Source of the DNA: a virus
UHGV virus genome: UHGV-0024034
DNA length: 30,722 nucleotides
Reading direction: 5' to 3' (one strand)
This document shows positions 3-30,569 of the stretch, in pieces (within the stretch, counting starts at the first letter, position 1; the number at the start of each line of letters is the position of its first letter). The notes below the pieces were generated by a model that saw nothing but the letters and a program-made list of their open reading frames with translations, ran no database searches and was not told the origin of the DNA. The translations under genes and the position numbers were made by a program.

Positions 3-32
3 TAAAAAAGGGCCAGCCAATTGGCCAGCCCT
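3..32 (-). terminator. Rho-independent terminator, probably the original host rplS terminator now separated from the gene by the prophage
   Basis: On the minus strand: 10-bp stem (8 Watson-Crick plus 2 G-U), 4-nt loop AAUU, followed by a run of six U (plus-strand A-run at 4..9). Confidence 0.55.
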
Positions 33-157: not shown

Positions 158-1207
158 TTATGCAACCTCTGCCGCCACATTGTCGCCAACATACAGCGAT
201 AACGGATTGAGGGTTACAGCTTGTTCAAGGTGGTCAGGAGCAAAGTGCGCATACTTCATTGTTTCTCGAATATTGGCATGTCCGAGAATTTTCTGCAGCA
301 CCAGTATATTCCCTCCGTTCATCATAAAATGCGCACCAAAAGTATGACGCAAAACGTGCGTCTTCTGCCCTTCCGTCAATTCAATATTCGTTAGTTTGAG
401 CATCTTTTTAAACTCCTGATAGCAGGGTTTAAACATTCTGCCTTGACGTACGGACAACTCGTCGTACAGCCATTTAGGAATAGGAACTGTGCGATTCTTC
501 TTACCTTTGGTTTTGGTGAACGTTAGTTTATATGGAGAAAGTTGAGGTCGGGTCAATCTCTCCGCTTCCCCCCATCGAGCGCCGGTTGCAAGGCACACCT
601 TAACAATCATGGTGAGGTCTTCTTTGCCGTATTGCTCGCAGGCTCGAAACAGCTCCGGGAGCTGAGACAAAGTTAGCCAGGACATTTCTTTCTCAGCTTC
701 TTTGAATACTCGGATCCCATCAAGTGGATTGGGTAGGCTCCACTCCCCTAACCGGCGGAGCTCATTAAACACTGCTTCTAGGTATTGTTGTTCGCGATTG
801 ACGGTTATAGGTTTGGCGATCCATTTCGAGGGGTCTTTATGATAACCATTGTCTATTTCACCACGTAATCGACGGTCACGATAATGAGCCCAGTCTTTCG
901 CGGTAAGGCGAGATGCAATCGGGTCGCCAAGTCCATTACATACGATTTGAAGCTTTGCAAATCTCGACTTACTGGCGACTAACGCTTGACCGTGCAAATT
1001 GTGCCAAAGCTGAATAATCTCGCTTAAGCGTCGGCGGTCTTCTTTCTTGCCGAGCCACGGCTTATCTTCACTCTCGCTTTTGGTAAATGCTTCAAATGCC
1101 TCGGCCTCACCTTTGGTATTGAACTGCCGACGTATACGCCGCCCTTCTCGACCATTTGGATAGAGTTCACACAACCATTTTCCACTTTTTTGTTTACTTA
1201 CAGTCAT
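158..1207 (-). CDS. int: Tyrosine integrase, P2 Int-like
   Basis: 349-aa ORF; N-terminal GRxGxRIRRxF and C-terminal HxLRHTFxxHFMMNGG...YAHFAP motifs typical of the P2 integrase family; adjacent to attL. Confidence 0.95.
   Translation of the reverse strand: MTVSKQKSGKWLCELYPNGREGRRIRRQFNTKGEAEAFEAFTKSESEDKPWLGKKEDRRRLSEIIQLWHNLHGQALVASKSRFAKLQIVCNGLGDPIASRLTAKDWAHYRDRRLRGEIDNGYHKDPSKWIAKPITVNREQQYLEAVFNELRRLGEWSLPNPLDGIRVFKEAEKEMSWLTLSQLPELFRACEQYGKEDLTMIVKVCLATGARWGEAERLTRPQLSPYKLTFTKTKGKKNRTVPIPKWLYDELSVRQGRMFKPCYQEFKKMLKLTNIELTEGQKTHVLRHTFGAHFMMNGGNILVLQKILGHANIRETMKYAHFAPDHLEQAVTLNPLSLYVGDNVAAEVA
163..190. repeat. attP arm repeat (candidate integrase arm-type site), copy 1
   Basis: CAACCTCTGCCGCCACATTGTCGCCAAC, about 24/28 identical to 30542..30569 in the same orientation; overlaps the int 3' end. 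Confidence 0.4.
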
Positions 1208-1231
1208 TGCGATACCGAGGCTAAAAGAAAA

Positions 1232-1570
1232 TTAATTACAAAGGGCTGTAGCGGCATCAATCACCGGTGAAATTGAAATTTTAACGCCGTCATACTCAGG
1301 GTCATCCTTCCATACGTCATCTAAGTTAGACCCCTCCAGCTTTCCTGATTTAACAGCATCTACCGCCATGCCATTCAGAGGATATCTATCATCAGTTTTG
1401 ATGTCATACACAAAAGCATAAGCACGGTTAACACATGATACCTTTGCCTTTTCAAAGGTTAGAGGCCACTTGTCACCATATGCAGCGCCGTCTATCTCTT
1501 TAAACTTCTCAGCGGCTATGGCTGAGGAAGAAAGTGCAATGCAGACTATCGCAAATATAAACTTTTTCAT
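1232..1570 (-). CDS. Small secreted protein (signal peptide, two Cys), accessory gene downstream of cI
   Basis: 112 aa; N-terminus MKKFIFAIVCIALSSSAIA is a typical Sec signal peptide; GGAG Shine-Dalgarno 5 nt before the ATG, only 9 bp after the cI stop; locally AT-richer than the structural genes. Confidence 0.6.
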   Translation of the reverse strand: MKKFIFAIVCIALSSSAIAAEKFKEIDGAAYGDKWPLTFEKAKVSCVNRAYAFVYDIKTDDRYPLNGMAVDAVKSGKLEGSNLDDVWKDDPEYDGVKISISPVIDAATALCN

Positions 1571-1579
1571 TACTGCTCC

Positions 1580-2425
1580 TTAAACATGCTTTTCCAAAGT
1601 AAAAATAACCGCACCTGATGGTGTGATATCTGAAATATTACATTCAAACTCAGCAGACTTATTTGATAACCTGACCTTTCCGCCTGGCAACCTGATTACG
1701 TCAAAAACATCGAGTGCGCCATCAATACCAATAAGCCAGCGACCATTTCCTATCTTCGAGTTAGAACTATCAACAAGCCAAGATGTGCTCACACCATCAA
1801 TAAACACTAAATCATCAGTATTTGATGGAACCATAGATATATCAGGAGTCCAGCGTCCGATATCTTTGAGTTCGCCAGCCTCGAGGCGGCACTTTCTAAT
1901 CGTTAAAGCATTTGCCGGTTCACCATCATTACTGTTACGCATCTGGCCTTTTCCGGTTGATAACCATTCTAACGATACGCCAGTATCAAGGGCGCAAGTG
2001 ACAACCACGTCACCGGGGAAAAAATCGCGTCTAACCCAAGTGCTTATAGTGCCGGAAGATATACCTAATAAATCTCCAAGCTCTTTTTGCAGAGTAAAAC
2101 CATACGCATCGAGAATCCGACGCAGAACCGCCCTCCCTCCATTTGCCATGATTTCATCATAGAGTTGCTTACCTTTAAGCTTAGTTTTCACCACTTCAAA
2201 TCTTGCATTTGCAAGCTCACCATTAATTAGCCATCGCAGGTCAGCTCCAGTATCAAGAGCACACTCAACGAAAACGTTGCTAGGGATTACGTTTCTAGCA
2301 AGCCAGCTACTCACGTTGTTTGCATGTATGCCAAGCCTTTCGGCTAGTTCCTTTTGCTGCTTAAAGCCGTATGCAGAAAGGACACGTTCCAATGCGGCAG
2401 ACGCATTAACATCATTTTTAGACAT
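1580..2425 (-). CDS. cI: CI-type immunity repressor (186 CI-like) with tandemly duplicated N-terminal HTH domain
   Basis: Two internal repeats (..VLSAYGFKQQKELAERLGIHANNVSSWLARNVIPSNVFVECALDTGADLRWL.. and ..ILDAYGFTLQKELGDLLGISSGTISTWVRRDFFPGDVVVTCALDTGVSLEWL..) resembling the 186 CI HTH domain, plus a C-terminal domain. Start taken at Met-64 of the ORF-track frame, because the upstream part of the ORF runs through the promoter region. Confidence 0.8.
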   Translation of the reverse strand: MSKNDVNASAALERVLSAYGFKQQKELAERLGIHANNVSSWLARNVIPSNVFVECALDTGADLRWLINGELANARFEVVKTKLKGKQLYDEIMANGGRAVLRRILDAYGFTLQKELGDLLGISSGTISTWVRRDFFPGDVVVTCALDTGVSLEWLSTGKGQMRNSNDGEPANALTIRKCRLEAGELKDIGRWTPDISMVPSNTDDLVFIDGVSTSWLVDSSNSKIGNGRWLIGIDGALDVFDVIRLPGGKVRLSNKSAEFECNISDITPSGAVIFTLEKHV

Positions 2426-2446: not shown

Positions 2447-2475
2447 TTTACAACCAAAATTTAGCGATCTATATT
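2447..2475 (+). promoter_or_regulatory. Putative rightward early (lytic) promoter pR: -35 TTTACA (2447..2452), 17-bp spacer, -10 TATATT (2470..2475)
   Basis: Sigma70-like hexamers with canonical spacing in the cI-apl switch region; CI operators and the leftward cI promoter not resolved. Confidence 0.4.
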
Positions 2476-2538
2476 GGTGCTCACCGACCAAGATGCACAC
2501 CACTGCACTACATTTCAAACAACAGGAGATAATGCGAT

Positions 2539-2910
2539 ATGTCAGATGCAAAATCAATCTCGACGCACGACTCGCAAAACTCACAAAATCAAACTGTGCT
2601 GCTAGACCCAACACAGTTTGATGCCATCGTTACCGCCATGCTGCCAGCTCTACAGACAATGATTCGCTCCGCTATGTCAGACACGATGACTGTGAAAGAC
2701 TTCGCCGCTACTCGCGGTGTTAGCGAGCGTCTGGTCTGGCAATGGCTCGATGAGGGAGTCCTTCTCAAAGCTCCGACCAAAGACTTTTCCAACAAAGAGG
2801 AAGCTGCTAAACGAAGCCGAACCCTCGTAAATGTAAAAGCATGGCGCGATAAGCTGACTCAACAAGCGATTGATTGTCGCTACATCGACCAGCGCACCGC
2901 TCTTAACTGA
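2539..2910 (+). CDS. Apl/Cox-like excisionase and transcriptional regulator
   Basis: First rightward gene after the switch region; HTH-like segment TVKDFAATRGVSERLVWQWLDEGVL; AGGAG RBS about 10 nt upstream. Longer than 186 Apl, so the true start may be an internal Met. Confidence 0.55.
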   Translation: MSDAKSISTHDSQNSQNQTVLLDPTQFDAIVTAMLPALQTMIRSAMSDTMTVKDFAATRGVSERLVWQWLDEGVLLKAPTKDFSNKEEAAKRSRTLVNVKAWRDKLTQQAIDCRYIDQRTALN

Positions 2911-2942: not shown

Positions 2943-3452
2943 ATGTTTGATTTTCAGGTTTCCAAACATCCCCACTATGACGAAGCATGCCGCATTTTCG
3001 CACAGCGTCACAACATGGCGAAGCTGGCCGAGCGTGCAGGTATGAACGTTCAAACGTTACGTAACAAGCTCAACCCGGAACAGCCTCACCAGTTCACGCC
3101 GCCTGAATTGTGGCTGCTGACTGACCTGACCGAAGACTCAACCCTCATTGATGGTTTTTTAGCGCAGATTCACTGCCTACCATGCGTGCCGGTTAATGAG
3201 TTGGCTAAAGACAAATTGCAGTCTTATGTCATGCGCGCGATGCGTGAACTCGGCGAACTGGCGAGCGGCGCGGTATCTGATGAACGTCTGACCACTGCCC
3301 GTAAGCACAACATGATTGAAAGCGTTAACTCCGGCATTCGCATGTTGTCATTGTCGGCTCTGGCGCTGCATGCACGTCTGCAGACTAATCCAGCTATGTC
3401 GAGCGTGGTCGATACCATGAGCGGTATTGGCGCATCGTTTGGTCTGATTTGA
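2943..3452 (+). CDS. cII: CII-like lysogeny establishment regulator
   Basis: 169 aa from MFDFQVSKHPHYDEACRIF...; matches my memory of 186 CII in sequence and length; GAGGG RBS. The ORF-track start at 2913 is probably an overextension. Confidence 0.8.
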   Translation: MFDFQVSKHPHYDEACRIFAQRHNMAKLAERAGMNVQTLRNKLNPEQPHQFTPPELWLLTDLTEDSTLIDGFLAQIHCLPCVPVNELAKDKLQSYVMRAMRELGELASGAVSDERLTTARKHNMIESVNSGIRMLSLSALALHARLQTNPAMSSVVDTMSGIGASFGLI

Positions 3453-7001: not shown

Positions 7002-7235
7002 ATGAGAATCAATATCACGTTGGATAAAGAGCAAAAAATTAGTCAGGCAACATTGGATGCACTTGAGGCTGAACTGTACCGCAATCTTCAACCTATTTAC
7101 CCAAAGACTGCTATCCGAATTCGCAAGGGCTCCGCTAATGGCGTTGAACTAAGCGGTTTGAAACTGGACGAAGATAAAAAACGAGTAATGGAAATCATGC
7201 AGCAGGTATGGGAGGACGATAGCTGGCTGCATTAA
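7002..7235 (+). CDS. DinI-family protein
   Basis: 77 aa, MRINITLDK...LDALEAELYRNLQ...EIMQQVWEDDSWLH; same length and pattern as E. coli DinI as I recall it (MRI.V...DAL..EL.R...I.Q..WE..D.W). Confidence 0.75.
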   Translation: MRINITLDKEQKISQATLDALEAELYRNLQPIYPKTAIRIRKGSANGVELSGLKLDEDKKRVMEIMQQVWEDDSWLH

Positions 7236-8532: not shown

Positions 8533-9537
8533 CTAATTTACATGTATGTAGAGTTCACCGTCGCCAGACCAATCGGGACACTCTAAAACAAGCCCAAACT
8601 GCTTGAATATTTCATCAATGATTATTGTTATCTCCCGAAAATCACCAAAACCTGTAATGTGCTGGTCATTAAACTTCCCATAAAGATTCTGAAAAGCAAT
8701 GCCTAATTCTGATAATTGATATCTTATCTTTGAGTTGGATAGTGTAAGGGATAGCTTTGGATCGTATTCTTTAATATTGATGTTTAGAGAATGGACATAA
8801 CCCATCGCATAAGCATAAGAGTTGATGATTAGCCTGATACGTTTTTTTACTTCAAGATACATGTCATTCAGAGAAATATTACCGTACTTATAACCCCAGA
8901 TGAGTTTTTCAATCTCGTCAGATACTTCATTTACAACAGTGTCAAGATTCTCTAAAAATAAATCGATAGTTTCTTGAGGGGCAGACCCCGAAGACATGTA
9001 ATTAGCGAGATATTCAGACCATGCACGCGTGGCTGAGATAAGAAGCGCGCTACCATACTCGTTGACTGTAAAGTTTTGGGCTAAGCATGTTAGTAAGTTT
9101 TTTTCATGTACGTGCACTAATTCATGGTGAATGCGATGGATGACTGCGAGGTATCCTTCTTCTTTCAGTTTTAAGAAGCTACCATCATTGAAAAGCTCAA
9201 CAAAAAAATCAATCGATAGCACAAGGGTATATTCTTCACATAGCCCATCATTGCCAATTTTTGTTACTAACTGCCCGACGGCTGCGCCCTGTTTGCTATT
9301 GGTAAATGAACTAGGGGATTTGTGTTGGTAAGAGGATGTTACCTTTTGAAGAGCTTCACTGAAGTTATAGGAAACAATCACGCATTTTAATTTGGAGATA
9401 TCAAGATTGAGATTTTTTGTTAAAGCTCGGATAGCTTCTAGTGTGAAATTACCGATATTATTTGCTTCTTGCTCAGTAGCGAAACCTTCGAGGGTTATTT
9501 TAAAATCAGTTTCCAAAATATTAATCTCCGCGCCCAT
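8533..9537 (-). CDS. AT-rich orphan protein with HExxH motif; candidate anti-phage or abortive-infection effector
   Basis: 334-aa ORF, markedly AT-rich by eye relative to the GC-rich flanks; HELVHVHE at residues 138..145 (nt 9126..9103); no resemblance to P2/186 core proteins that I recognise; lies between cos and portal gene Q. Confidence 0.6.
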   Translation of the reverse strand: MGAEINILETDFKITLEGFATEQEANNIGNFTLEAIRALTKNLNLDISKLKCVIVSYNFSEALQKVTSSYQHKSPSSFTNSKQGAAVGQLVTKIGNDGLCEEYTLVLSIDFFVELFNDGSFLKLKEEGYLAVIHRIHHELVHVHEKNLLTCLAQNFTVNEYGSALLISATRAWSEYLANYMSSGSAPQETIDLFLENLDTVVNEVSDEIEKLIWGYKYGNISLNDMYLEVKKRIRLIINSYAYAMGYVHSLNINIKEYDPKLSLTLSNSKIRYQLSELGIAFQNLYGKFNDQHITGFGDFREITIIIDEIFKQFGLVLECPDWSGDGELYIHVN

Positions 9538-30541: not shown

Positions 30542-30569
30542 CAACCTCTGCCGCCAATTTGCCGCCACC
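30542..30569. repeat. attP arm repeat (candidate integrase arm-type site), copy 2
   Basis: CAACCTCTGCCGCCAATTTGCCGCCACC; see copy 1 at 163..190. Confidence 0.4.

What the first reader, a model, noticed from the sequence alone, without database searches (positions are those of the whole stretch)
1232..1570. Secreted small protein co-transcribed with the repressor: candidate lysogenic-conversion (moron) gene
Seen: a 112-aa ORF with a typical Sec signal peptide and two cysteines starts 9 bp after the cI stop with a good Shine-Dalgarno, between cI and int. No terminator was noted between cI and this ORF, so it should be expressed in the lysogen together with the repressor. Inference: a periplasmic factor affecting host fitness or excluding superinfecting phage.
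Basis: partly seen in the sequence, partly recalled or inferred. Interest (0 to 1): 0.5.

Follow-up and report, generated by a model that had tools for sequence, protein, structure and literature searches.

The report
Phage-borne periplasmic YebY-like protein gene
The small secreted-protein gene between the repressor and integrase genes of this E. coli prophage is real, but it is an already catalogued gene (PSP3 gp28, YebY/DUF2511 family), so it is a plausible but untested lysogen-expressed accessory gene, not a new kind of element.

Summary
A 112-aa ORF lies on the minus strand at 1232-1570. It starts 9 bp after the cI stop, behind an AAGGAG Shine-Dalgarno, and ends 24 bp before int. No terminator-like structure sits at either junction.

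It is not an orphan. It matches Pfam DUF2511/YebY (67.8 bits) and PHROG 2950 over its full length, and it is the orthologue of Salmonella phage PSP3 gp28. A pLDDT 89 model superposes on E. coli YebY (7N0J) at TM 0.90-0.93. The conserved Trp and the two disulfide cysteines are present.

The window is a PSP3/186-type (Eganvirus) prophage of E. coli. The order cI-DUF2511-int recurs in all 92 comparable loci examined, and in Yersinia and Edwardsiella prophages whose copy is only 38-39% identical. Phage 186 lacks the gene. dN/dS is 0.08-0.27.

The window allele is a recombinant: its mature-domain cassette was swapped independently of immunity. Related phage-borne copies sit elsewhere, including as a stand-alone unit between att and ogr.

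Expression in the lysogen is inferred from the phage 186 lysogenic operon, not shown. The function is untested. I favour periplasmic protection or exclusion of the lysogen over modulation of YebZ copper import. A 2021 JBC paper already noted this gene context. Novelty and interest are low to moderate.

The parts
1232..1570 (-). DUF2511/YebY-family ORF (PSP3 gp28 orthologue), 112 aa including the stop codon
   Evidence: Pfam PF10709 scores 67.8 bits, phrog_2950 matches 1-112/112, and 7N0J YebY matches at E = 3.8e-8.
1514..1570 (-). Signal-peptide coding part (residues 1-19, MKKFIFAIVCIALSSSAIA). It is about 95% or more identical at DNA level to the P0019-type allele of phages with the same immunity.
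1235..1513 (-). Mature-domain coding part (residues 20-112), with W35, C46 and C111. It is a recombinant cassette: 93-100% identical to SW9/L027-type alleles but only 43-72% identical to the allele found with the same cI (L047).
1576..1581 (-). Shine-Dalgarno AAGGAG overlapping the cI stop codon, 5 nt before the ATG
   Evidence: Other alleles have TAAGGGAA at the same place.
1580..2425 (-). cI repressor, 281 aa, with two Phage_CI_repr HTH domains plus the CI C-terminal domain; first gene of the lysogenic operon
1208..1231 (-). 24-nt spacer between the ORF stop and the int ATG; no hairpin-plus-U-tract
158..1207 (-). Tyrosine integrase (349 aa); it must be transcribed through the DUF2511 ORF
2529..2557 (-). 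Candidate pL: TTGATT (2557-2552), 17-nt spacer, CATTAT (2534-2529). It brackets the apl-like ATG as in phage 186. It matches 8 of 12 consensus positions, below the scan threshold.
   Evidence: Read; layout compared with the 186 annotation. Inference only.
2447..2475 (+). Candidate pR (TTTACA-17-TATATT), convergent with pL
2943..2969 (+). CII binding site ATGTTTG-N13-CAAACAT, 27 of 27 identical to the annotated 186 CII site that activates pE (the leftward establishment promoter)
2539..2910 (+). apl/cox-like early gene (phrog_3554; weak match to Cox-like excisionase)
2943..3452 (+). cII (Phage_CP76)
11..26 (-). First terminator-like hairpin plus T-run downstream of int. It probably ends the lysogenic operon in the prophage. 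It lies in the int-yfiB gap and may be host DNA.

Best explanation
Identity (shown). The ORF encodes a small (about 10 kDa mature, pI about 4.6) Sec-exported protein of the YebY/DUF2511 family. It is the orthologue of PSP3 gp28.

Operon position (shown). The gene sits in the lysogenic operon cI-gp28-int of a PSP3/186-type (Eganvirus) prophage of E. coli. It is tightly packed and has a Shine-Dalgarno overlapping the cI stop.

Expression (inferred from the phage 186 paradigm). It is transcribed with cI and int from the maintenance promoter pL in the lysogen. It is also transcribed from the CII-activated promoter pE during establishment. It is then exported, its signal peptide is cut after A19, and C46-C111 are oxidised to the family's disulfide.

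Status (shown by comparison). It is a dispensable accessory gene of the lysogeny module. It is absent from phage 186 and present in a deep lineage of related prophages. It is under purifying selection, yet it diverges as fast as the immunity repressor, and its mature domain is shuffled between phages by recombination.

Mechanism I commit to (inferred, about 0.35-0.4). In the periplasm of the lysogen it acts as a small binding protein that protects the cell. It would intercept something that attacks through the envelope, such as a component of a superinfecting phage or a bacteriocin-like agent. This is analogous to how the family member MlbQ binds a lantibiotic. Confidence in the identity and operon placement is above 0.9. 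The number given below refers to the mechanism.
For: Family and fold:
- Pfam DUF2511 scores 67.8 bits against a cutoff of 21.
- phrog_2950 matches over the full length.
- YebY 7N0J matches at E = 3.8e-8, ungapped over 80 residues.
- The AF2 model has pLDDT 89.3. It gives TM 0.90-0.93 (normalised to the target) and rmsd 1.1-1.5 A to YebY, then MlbQ at TM 0.49-0.71, and no other fold.
- The family-invariant residues W35, C46, Y63 and C111 are present.

Operon:
- The gaps are 9 bp and 24 bp, with no terminator-like sites.
- Promoter-like hits are no more frequent than chance (5 found, 4.6 expected).
- The 186 CII site is identical, 27 of 27.
- The 186 annotation gives pL and pE as the promoters of the cI-int operon.

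Accessory status:
- Phage 186 has cI overlapping int.
- Only 10 of 42 related phage records carry the gene.

Conservation:
- Among 90 freshly fetched loci, 88 have a cI-ORF gap of 8-9 bp, and 82 of the 89 where int could be scored have an ORF-int gap of 21-25 bp. The 7 isolated-phage records show the same order.
- The same order holds in Yersinia and Edwardsiella prophages at 38-39% identity.
- dN/dS is 0.08-0.27.

Hints toward a protective role:
- The gene sits next to the repressor.
- Its divergence equals or exceeds that of cI. Against PSP3, cI is 72% identical, the ORF 66% and int 91%.
- The mature-domain cassette was swapped between phages that share 98% identical cI.
- The same slot elsewhere holds another secreted 134-aa ORF and a bPH_3/SHOCT gene.
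- Independent phage-borne DUF2511 copies exist. One is a stand-alone unit flanked by terminators between att and ogr. Another lies among the tail genes of an unrelated phage-like contig.
- MlbQ is proposed to confer immunity by binding NAI-107 (PMC8689200).
Against: - No experiment on any phage-borne member was found in the searchable literature.
- The protein has no match in PADLOC or NCBIfam.
- dN/dS is well below 1, so there is no signal of positive selection at the whole-gene level.
- Cassette swapping is also what ordinary phage mosaicism produces.
- The closest characterised homologue, YebY, acts in copper handling, not in defence.
- Transcription in the lysogen is inferred, not measured. 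The pL and pE -10 elements are weak or ambiguous here.
Confidence: 0.38

Rival explanations
1. Copper-related lysogenic conversion. The phage protein acts like chromosomal YebY, binding or competing at the host YebZ (CopD)/YobA (CopC) importer. Constitutive expression from the prophage would then dampen copper import, with downstream effects on MarR and mar signalling or on NDH-2 metallation.
For: - YebY is the closest characterised relative: 30-34% identity and TM 0.9.
- YebY lowers YebZ-dependent copper accumulation and is needed for full NDH-2 activity (PMC11923076; PMC8689200).
- AZY operons are reported across Enterobacteriaceae, Erwiniaceae and Yersiniaceae, the host families of these prophages (PMC8689200). 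I saw the operon directly only in Serratia and Winslowiella loci.
Against: - The phage-borne clades fall outside the AZY-linked YebY clade in a rough NJ tree.
- No copC or copD gene ever lies inside the phage.
- The JBC authors list the recombinase/CI-repressor context among operons unrelated to copper homeostasis.
- YebY binds copper only when its disulfide is reduced.
- Alleles only 63-65% identical occur in prophages with 98% identical cI. That is hard to reconcile with docking on a single host partner if those prophages share one host species, which I did not check.
Confidence: 0.2
2. A different host-fitness function in the envelope, such as stress tolerance, resistance to host antimicrobial peptides or niche adaptation, that involves neither phage exclusion nor copper.
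For: The protein is periplasmic and lysogen-expressed by inference. The gene persists across four enterobacterial families. MlbQ provides a precedent for peptide binding.
Against: There is no specific evidence. The module is rare in E. coli: 67 of 5426 complete genomes carry it and 17 carry this allele. There is no association with virulence loci.
Confidence: 0.17
3. A role in the phage's own life cycle. Because the gene is also transcribed from pE with int during establishment, it might condition the envelope at establishment or at induction and lysis. It would then be lineage-core rather than cargo.
For: Synteny with cI and int is strict and ancient, holding down to 38-39% identity. The CII/pE site is conserved.
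Against: Phage 186 and many Eganvirus phages lysogenise without it. Related copies sit outside the operon as stand-alone units. An exported protein cannot act directly on integration or repression.
Confidence: 0.08
4. A passenger with no current function, retained because it lies between two essential lysogeny genes.
For: No function has been demonstrated.
Against: All 92 comparable loci carry an intact ORF of 112-113 aa. dN/dS is 0.08-0.27. Twenty-six residues are invariant across 59 alleles, and the signal peptide and both cysteines are kept in 58 of 59.
Confidence: 0.03

Closest known systems
Salmonella phage PSP3 gp28 (orf28) and its orthologues in SW9, SI22, SEN1, Midge, RCIP0057 and vB_EcoM-613R3
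   Same: The gene sits in the same position (cI, 8-9 bp, gene, 22-24 bp, int). It has the same length (112 aa) and the same family. Amino-acid identity is 63-84%.
   Different: The window allele is a chimera. Its signal peptide is of the P0019 type and its mature domain of the SW9 type. None of these orthologues has been tested functionally.
E. coli YebY (PDB 7N0J), third gene of the yobA-yebZ-yebY (AZY) copper operon
   Same: Same Pfam family and same fold (TM 0.90-0.93). Both have a signal peptide, the conserved Trp and the Cys-Cys disulfide positions, and both are about 113 aa.
   Different: Identity is only 30-34%. The window protein lies outside the AZY clade. It is not next to copC or copD but between a phage repressor and an integrase. 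Copper-related activity is untested.
MlbQ (PDB 2MVO/6QFP), lantibiotic NAI-107 self-resistance lipoprotein of Microbispora
   Same: Same family and fold (TM 0.49-0.71, 19-21% identity). It is an extracytoplasmic small binding protein proposed to give immunity by binding an envelope-targeting peptide.
   Different: MlbQ is a lipoprotein with a long linker and is encoded with ABC transporters in an actinomycete. The window protein has no lipobox and no transporter neighbours.
Accessory genes carried in temperate-phage lysogenic operons (lambda rexA/rexB; phage 186 orf69 downstream of int)
   Same: Non-essential genes co-transcribed with the repressor in the prophage state. The 186 operon cI-int-orf69 is annotated in the record itself. 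The lambda example is from general knowledge.
   Different: There is no sequence relationship. RexAB are cytoplasmic and membrane proteins with a demonstrated exclusion phenotype, whereas nothing has been demonstrated here.
Morons in the sense of Hendrix and colleagues
   Same: An extra gene present in some members of a phage group and absent from close relatives. The P0212-type copy between att and ogr has the classic layout with flanking terminators.
   Different: In the window the gene has no promoter or terminator of its own. It is an operon-embedded insert.

Membership tests
YebY / DUF2511 (Pfam PF10709) | Profile match above the curated gathering score | tested here: met
   67.8 bits against a cutoff of 21, E = 1.1e-18, profile positions 5-87 of 87.
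YebY / DUF2511 (Pfam PF10709) | Two conserved cysteines that form the stabilising disulfide (YebY Cys48-Cys113) and the conserved Trp (YebY Trp37) | tested here: met
   C46, C111 and W35 align with them. They are kept in 58 of 59 phage alleles. Formation of the disulfide itself is not testable here.
YebY / DUF2511 (Pfam PF10709) | Fold: four-stranded antiparallel sheet packed by helices | tested here: met
   The AF2 model has pLDDT 89.3. Against 7N0J it gives TM 0.90-0.93 and rmsd 1.1-1.5 A over 91-93 residues.
YebY / DUF2511 (Pfam PF10709) | Extracytoplasmic location through an N-terminal signal peptide | tested here: inconclusive
   The sequence features are met: n-region +2, a 10-residue h-region, and AIA|A. 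In 58 of 59 alleles they are kept. No dedicated predictor and no experiment were available.
AZY-operon YebY orthologue (copper import module) | Encoded next to copC (yobA) and copD (yebZ) | tested here: not met
   The neighbours are cI and int. True AZY members such as P0213 and P0221 have CopC-CopD upstream and form a separate clade.
AZY-operon YebY orthologue (copper import module) | Modulates YebZ-dependent copper uptake; binds copper with low affinity when reduced | not testable with these tools
   Needs ICP-MS or reporter assays.
MlbQ-type lantibiotic immunity lipoprotein | Lipoprotein signal (lipobox Cys) and linkage to an immunity ABC transporter | tested here: not met
   C10 is preceded by A-I-V, which is not a lipobox, and lies only 9 residues from the N-terminus. 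No transporter genes lie nearby.
Moron (strict sense) | Present in some phages of a group and absent from close relatives | tested here: met
   Phage 186 has cI overlapping int by 1 bp. Only 10 of 42 related phage records carry the gene.
Moron (strict sense) | Own promoter and terminator, forming an autonomous transcription unit | tested here: not met
   The gaps are 9 bp and 24 bp with no terminator-like site. Promoter-like hits are at the chance level. The related P0212 copy does have flanking terminators.
Member of the 186-type lysogenic operon (pL/pE: cI ... int) | Same strand as cI and int, between them, no intervening terminator, CII-dependent pE upstream | tested here: met
   The CII site is identical to that of 186. 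The pL assignment is by position only.
Member of the 186-type lysogenic operon (pL/pE: cI ... int) | Transcript present in the lysogen | not testable with these tools
   Needs RNA-seq, Northern analysis or 5' RACE.
Known anti-phage defence or superinfection-exclusion families | Match to a curated defence-protein model | tested here: not met
   No PADLOC hit at E <= 0.01.

The most novel reading that the evidence does not exclude
Phage-borne YebY-fold proteins form a previously unrecognised class of soluble periplasmic protection or superinfection-exclusion factors. They are carried in the lysogeny module of 186/PSP3-type phages and, independently, at other phage loci. Their exchangeable mature domains would set the specificity.
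Probability: 0.2. Interest if true: 0.6.

Novelty: already known. Interest (0 to 1): 0.3.

Why it matters
If the phage copies do something measurable, this would give a function to a widespread DUF family whose chromosomal member, YebY, is still only loosely understood. It would also add an envelope-acting cargo gene to the well-studied 186/P2 lysogeny switch. As it stands, the value of this check is mainly negative. The ORF is real and probably made in lysogens. However, it is an annotated member of a known family, in a context already noted in the literature, with no functional data.

Tried and rejected
- NCBIfam and PADLOC gave no hit for the ORF.
- The first AF2 model, from a shallow 22-sequence alignment, was poor (pLDDT 65). 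Its fold search was only suggestive. I replaced it with a 76-sequence alignment.
- The scan of species-representative genomes returned only 3 loci, so I took contexts from IMG/VR and from exact-protein look-ups instead.
- Lipoprotein reading: rejected, because there is no lipobox before C10.
- Internal promoters for int inside the ORF: two 9-of-12 matches (1407-1379 and 1305-1278). The total number of hits in the region equals the shuffled expectation, so I did not use them.
- The longer leftward ORF 1580-2614 (GTG start): rejected as the cI gene. Homologues start at the ATG at 2425.
- Recent capture of the host yebY: rejected. The AZY clade is separate and identity is about 30%.
- Whole-gene positive selection: not seen (omega 0.08-0.27).
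- I could not place the pE -10 element confidently by spacing from the CII site.
- Searches for papers on phage gp28 or YebY in prophages found nothing functional.

Full report
**What is in the sequence**

The ORF is on the minus strand. Its ATG is at 1570, its stop codon at 1234-1232, and it encodes 112 aa. It lies between a 281-aa CI-type repressor (1580-2425) and a tyrosine integrase (158-1207). The repressor has two Phage_CI_repr HTH domains and a CI C-terminal domain.

The cI stop codon TAA is followed by GGAGCAGTA and then the ATG. The Shine-Dalgarno AAGGAG therefore overlaps the stop codon and sits 5 nt before the start. Twenty-four nt separate the ORF stop from the int ATG.

No terminator-like site was found between the three genes. 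Folding of the two junctions is no more stable than shuffled sequence (z = -0.09 and +0.89). Promoter-like matches in the region are at the chance level (5 found, 4.6 expected).

The N-terminus has the three parts of a Sec signal peptide: MKK, a 10-residue hydrophobic core, and SSSAIA|AEK. The precursor has three cysteines, one of them in the signal peptide. The mature protein has two.

**What the gene is**

The protein matches Pfam DUF2511/YebY at 67.8 bits against a cutoff of 21. It matches PHROG 2950 end to end. It matches E. coli YebY (PDB 7N0J) at E = 3.8e-8, with an ungapped 80-residue alignment.

A structure model built on a 76-sequence alignment has pLDDT 89.3. It superposes on YebY with target-normalised TM 0.90-0.93 and rmsd 1.1-1.5 A. 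[quoted passage not shown] No other fold matches.

W35, C46, Y63 and C111 are invariant or nearly invariant across the wider family. C46 and C111 correspond to the Cys48-Cys113 disulfide of YebY. That protein was shown experimentally to be periplasmic and disulfide-bonded (PMC8689200).

**What the window is**

The first 2.6 kb are 100% identical to prophages in complete E. coli genomes. The region is 80-91% identical to Peduoviridae/Eganvirus phages of the PSP3 group: vB_EcoM-613R3, SW9, SI22, SEN1, Midge, RCIP0057 and PSP3.

In each of them a 112-aa DUF2511 gene lies between cI and int. It is annotated as gp28/orf28 in PSP3 and as 'putative periplasmic protein' in Midge. The exact protein is in public databases as 'DUF2511 domain-containing protein'.

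[quoted passage not shown] The gene and its context are therefore already known. Its function is not.

**Operon logic**

In phage 186, cI overlaps int by 1 bp and orf69 follows. The record annotates pL (maintenance) and CII-activated pE (establishment) as the promoters of this lysogenic operon, with a terminator after orf69.

The window keeps that architecture:
- The 186 CII site ATGTTTG-N13-CAAACAT is present, 27 of 27 identical, at the start of cII (2943-2969).
- A pR-like promoter lies at 2447-2475.
- A pL candidate (TTGATT-17-CATTAT, 2557-2529, minus strand) brackets the apl-like ATG as in 186. This assignment is positional inference.

Int has no separate promoter, so any transcript that reaches int must pass through the DUF2511 ORF. 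Co-transcription with cI in the lysogen is therefore a strong inference, but it was not measured.

**Comparative evidence**

I fetched 90 further loci from IMG/VR, representative genomes and exact-protein look-ups. All have the order cI-DUF2511-int:
- The cI-ORF gap is 8-9 bp in 88 of the 90.
- The ORF-int gap is 21-25 bp in 82 of the 89 where int could be scored.
- Two loci carry an extra secreted 134-aa ORF between cI and DUF2511.
- Seven loci carry an extra 166-aa bPH_3/SHOCT gene between DUF2511 and int.

Pooling those loci that have all three genes scorable with the window and six isolated-phage loci gives 92 copies. All 92 are intact, and they represent 59 distinct alleles. Fifty-eight of the 59 keep the signal-peptide features and both mature cysteines, and 26 residues are invariant.

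dN/dS is 0.08-0.27, against 0.05-0.21 for cI and 0.02-0.04 for int. The gene is therefore under purifying selection.

The same order is found in Yersinia and Edwardsiella prophages whose DUF2511 is only 38-39% identical. It is also found in Pantoea. A Winslowiella prophage remnant retains cI-DUF2511 without an adjacent int. Phage 186 and many other Eganvirus phages lack the gene.

It is thus a long-standing but dispensable member of the lysogeny module of one lineage. It is not a core phage gene.

**Evolution of the allele**

The gene diverges as fast as the immunity repressor. Against PSP3, cI is 72% identical, the ORF 66% and int 91%.

The window allele is a recombinant. The comparisons are:
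- L047, which has a 98% identical cI: DNA identity stays at about 95% or more through cI and about 88% in the 60-nt bin covering the signal-peptide codons. It falls to 43-72% across the mature-domain codons (about 1500-1232) and recovers in int.
- SW9 and L027: the pattern is the reverse. Identity is 45% in the signal peptide and 87-100% from about 1507 to 1207.

The mature domain has therefore been exchanged independently of immunity.

In a search of 1.84 billion representatives, the close relatives of the window protein collapse into a single 50% cluster (175 bits). The next hit scores 94 bits, and 867 family representatives match in all. In a rough NJ tree the copper-operon (AZY) YebY proteins form their own clade, and the phage-borne lineages lie outside it. 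This is not a recent capture of the host yebY.

**Other phage-borne copies**

- A second lineage (P0212 type, 45-51% identical) is a stand-alone gene flanked by terminators. It lies between the tRNA-borne att site next to mug/rpoD and ogr in other 186-like prophages. This is the classic moron layout.
- A third copy (P0046, 31% identical) lies on the opposite strand among the tail and baseplate genes of an unrelated phage-like contig.

Recurrent carriage by phages argues that a periplasmic DUF2511 protein benefits the phage or the lysogen.

**Mechanism**

Nothing functional is known for any phage copy. The protein matches no known defence model.

Two characterised relatives give two leads:
- YebY diminishes YebZ-dependent copper import and contributes to NDH-2 activity.
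- MlbQ is proposed to give immunity by binding a lantibiotic.

I favour a protective binding role in the periplasm of the lysogen, acting against an incoming phage component or a bacteriocin-like agent, at about 0.35-0.4. The reasons are:
- the position next to the repressor;
- the cI-like rate of divergence;
- the cassette swapping;
- the other secreted proteins that occupy the same slot;
- the separation from the AZY clade.

The copper rival gets about 0.2, other host-fitness roles about 0.17, a phage life-cycle role about 0.08 and no function about 0.03. All of these are inferences. The decisive experiments are listed separately.

**Verdict**

The gene is an already known member of a known family in a known context. 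Interest is modest. It rests on the comparative findings made here: deep synteny, domain-level recombination, and independent phage acquisitions.

Noticed in passing
window 1580-2425 (-): The CI repressor is 281 aa and has two tandem Phage_CI_repr HTH domains plus the CI C-terminal domain. Phage 186 CI is 192 aa with one HTH. Related prophages with the same DUF2511 gene carry either the double-HTH form or a 194-202-aa single-HTH form.
   Followed up: partly
L026 3570-3974 and L008 (same position): An extra 134-aa ORF with its own signal peptide (MKRSIFALVLLTSFAVHA|QP...) is inserted between cI and the DUF2511 gene. The slot therefore collects a second secreted protein.
   Followed up: partly
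L014-L016, L034-L036, L040 (about 5362-5862 in L014); also L120/L121 5475-5975: A 166-aa GRAM/bPH_3/SHOCT gene is inserted between DUF2511 and int in some prophages. Separately, protein P0269 (186 aa) carries both PF10709 and the SHOCT domain, a possible fusion hint of a functional link.
   Followed up: no
L098 178-540; L102 2832-3194; L103-L106: A second phage-borne DUF2511 lineage (45-51% identical to the window protein) is a stand-alone gene. It lies between the tRNA(CAU) att site next to mug/rpoD and the ogr gene of other 186-like prophages. Int arm-type-like repeats lie upstream and terminators lie on both sides.
   Followed up: yes
L120/L121 1-6000; L101 2665-5734: In Winslowiella a prophage remnant carrying cI-DUF2511-bPH/SHOCT lies directly beside the chromosomal CopC-CopD-YebY operon. 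In another genome a different prophage integrase sits immediately downstream of yebY. The yebY flank may be an integration hotspot, or a route by which phages picked up family members.
   Followed up: no
L122 5001-5333: A 110-aa DUF2511 gene (31% identical) lies on the opposite strand among the baseplate and tape-measure genes of an unrelated phage-like metagenomic contig.
   Followed up: no
window 7002-7235 (+) and 8533-9537 (-): A DinI-like gene (84 bits) and a 334-aa ORF with no Pfam or PADLOC match lie between the replication gene A and the portal gene. By general knowledge this is the region where P2-like phages carry cargo such as tin and old.
   Followed up: partly
window 163-177 and 30542-30556: A 15-bp direct repeat, CAACCTCTGCCGCCA, occurs near both ends of the window. 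One copy lies inside the last codons of int. It is a candidate att core, which would make the first 162 bases of the window host DNA (the int-yfiB gap).
   Followed up: no
L074/L075 DUF2511 allele: One allele has Trp in place of the C-terminal disulfide cysteine (ALWE instead of ALCE). It could be a decaying copy or a sequencing error.
   Followed up: no
window 2539-2910 (+): The apl/cox-position gene is a 123-aa protein of PHROG 3554 with only a weak Cox-like match. A 2011 survey called the PSP3 counterpart a singleton without detectable domains.
   Followed up: no
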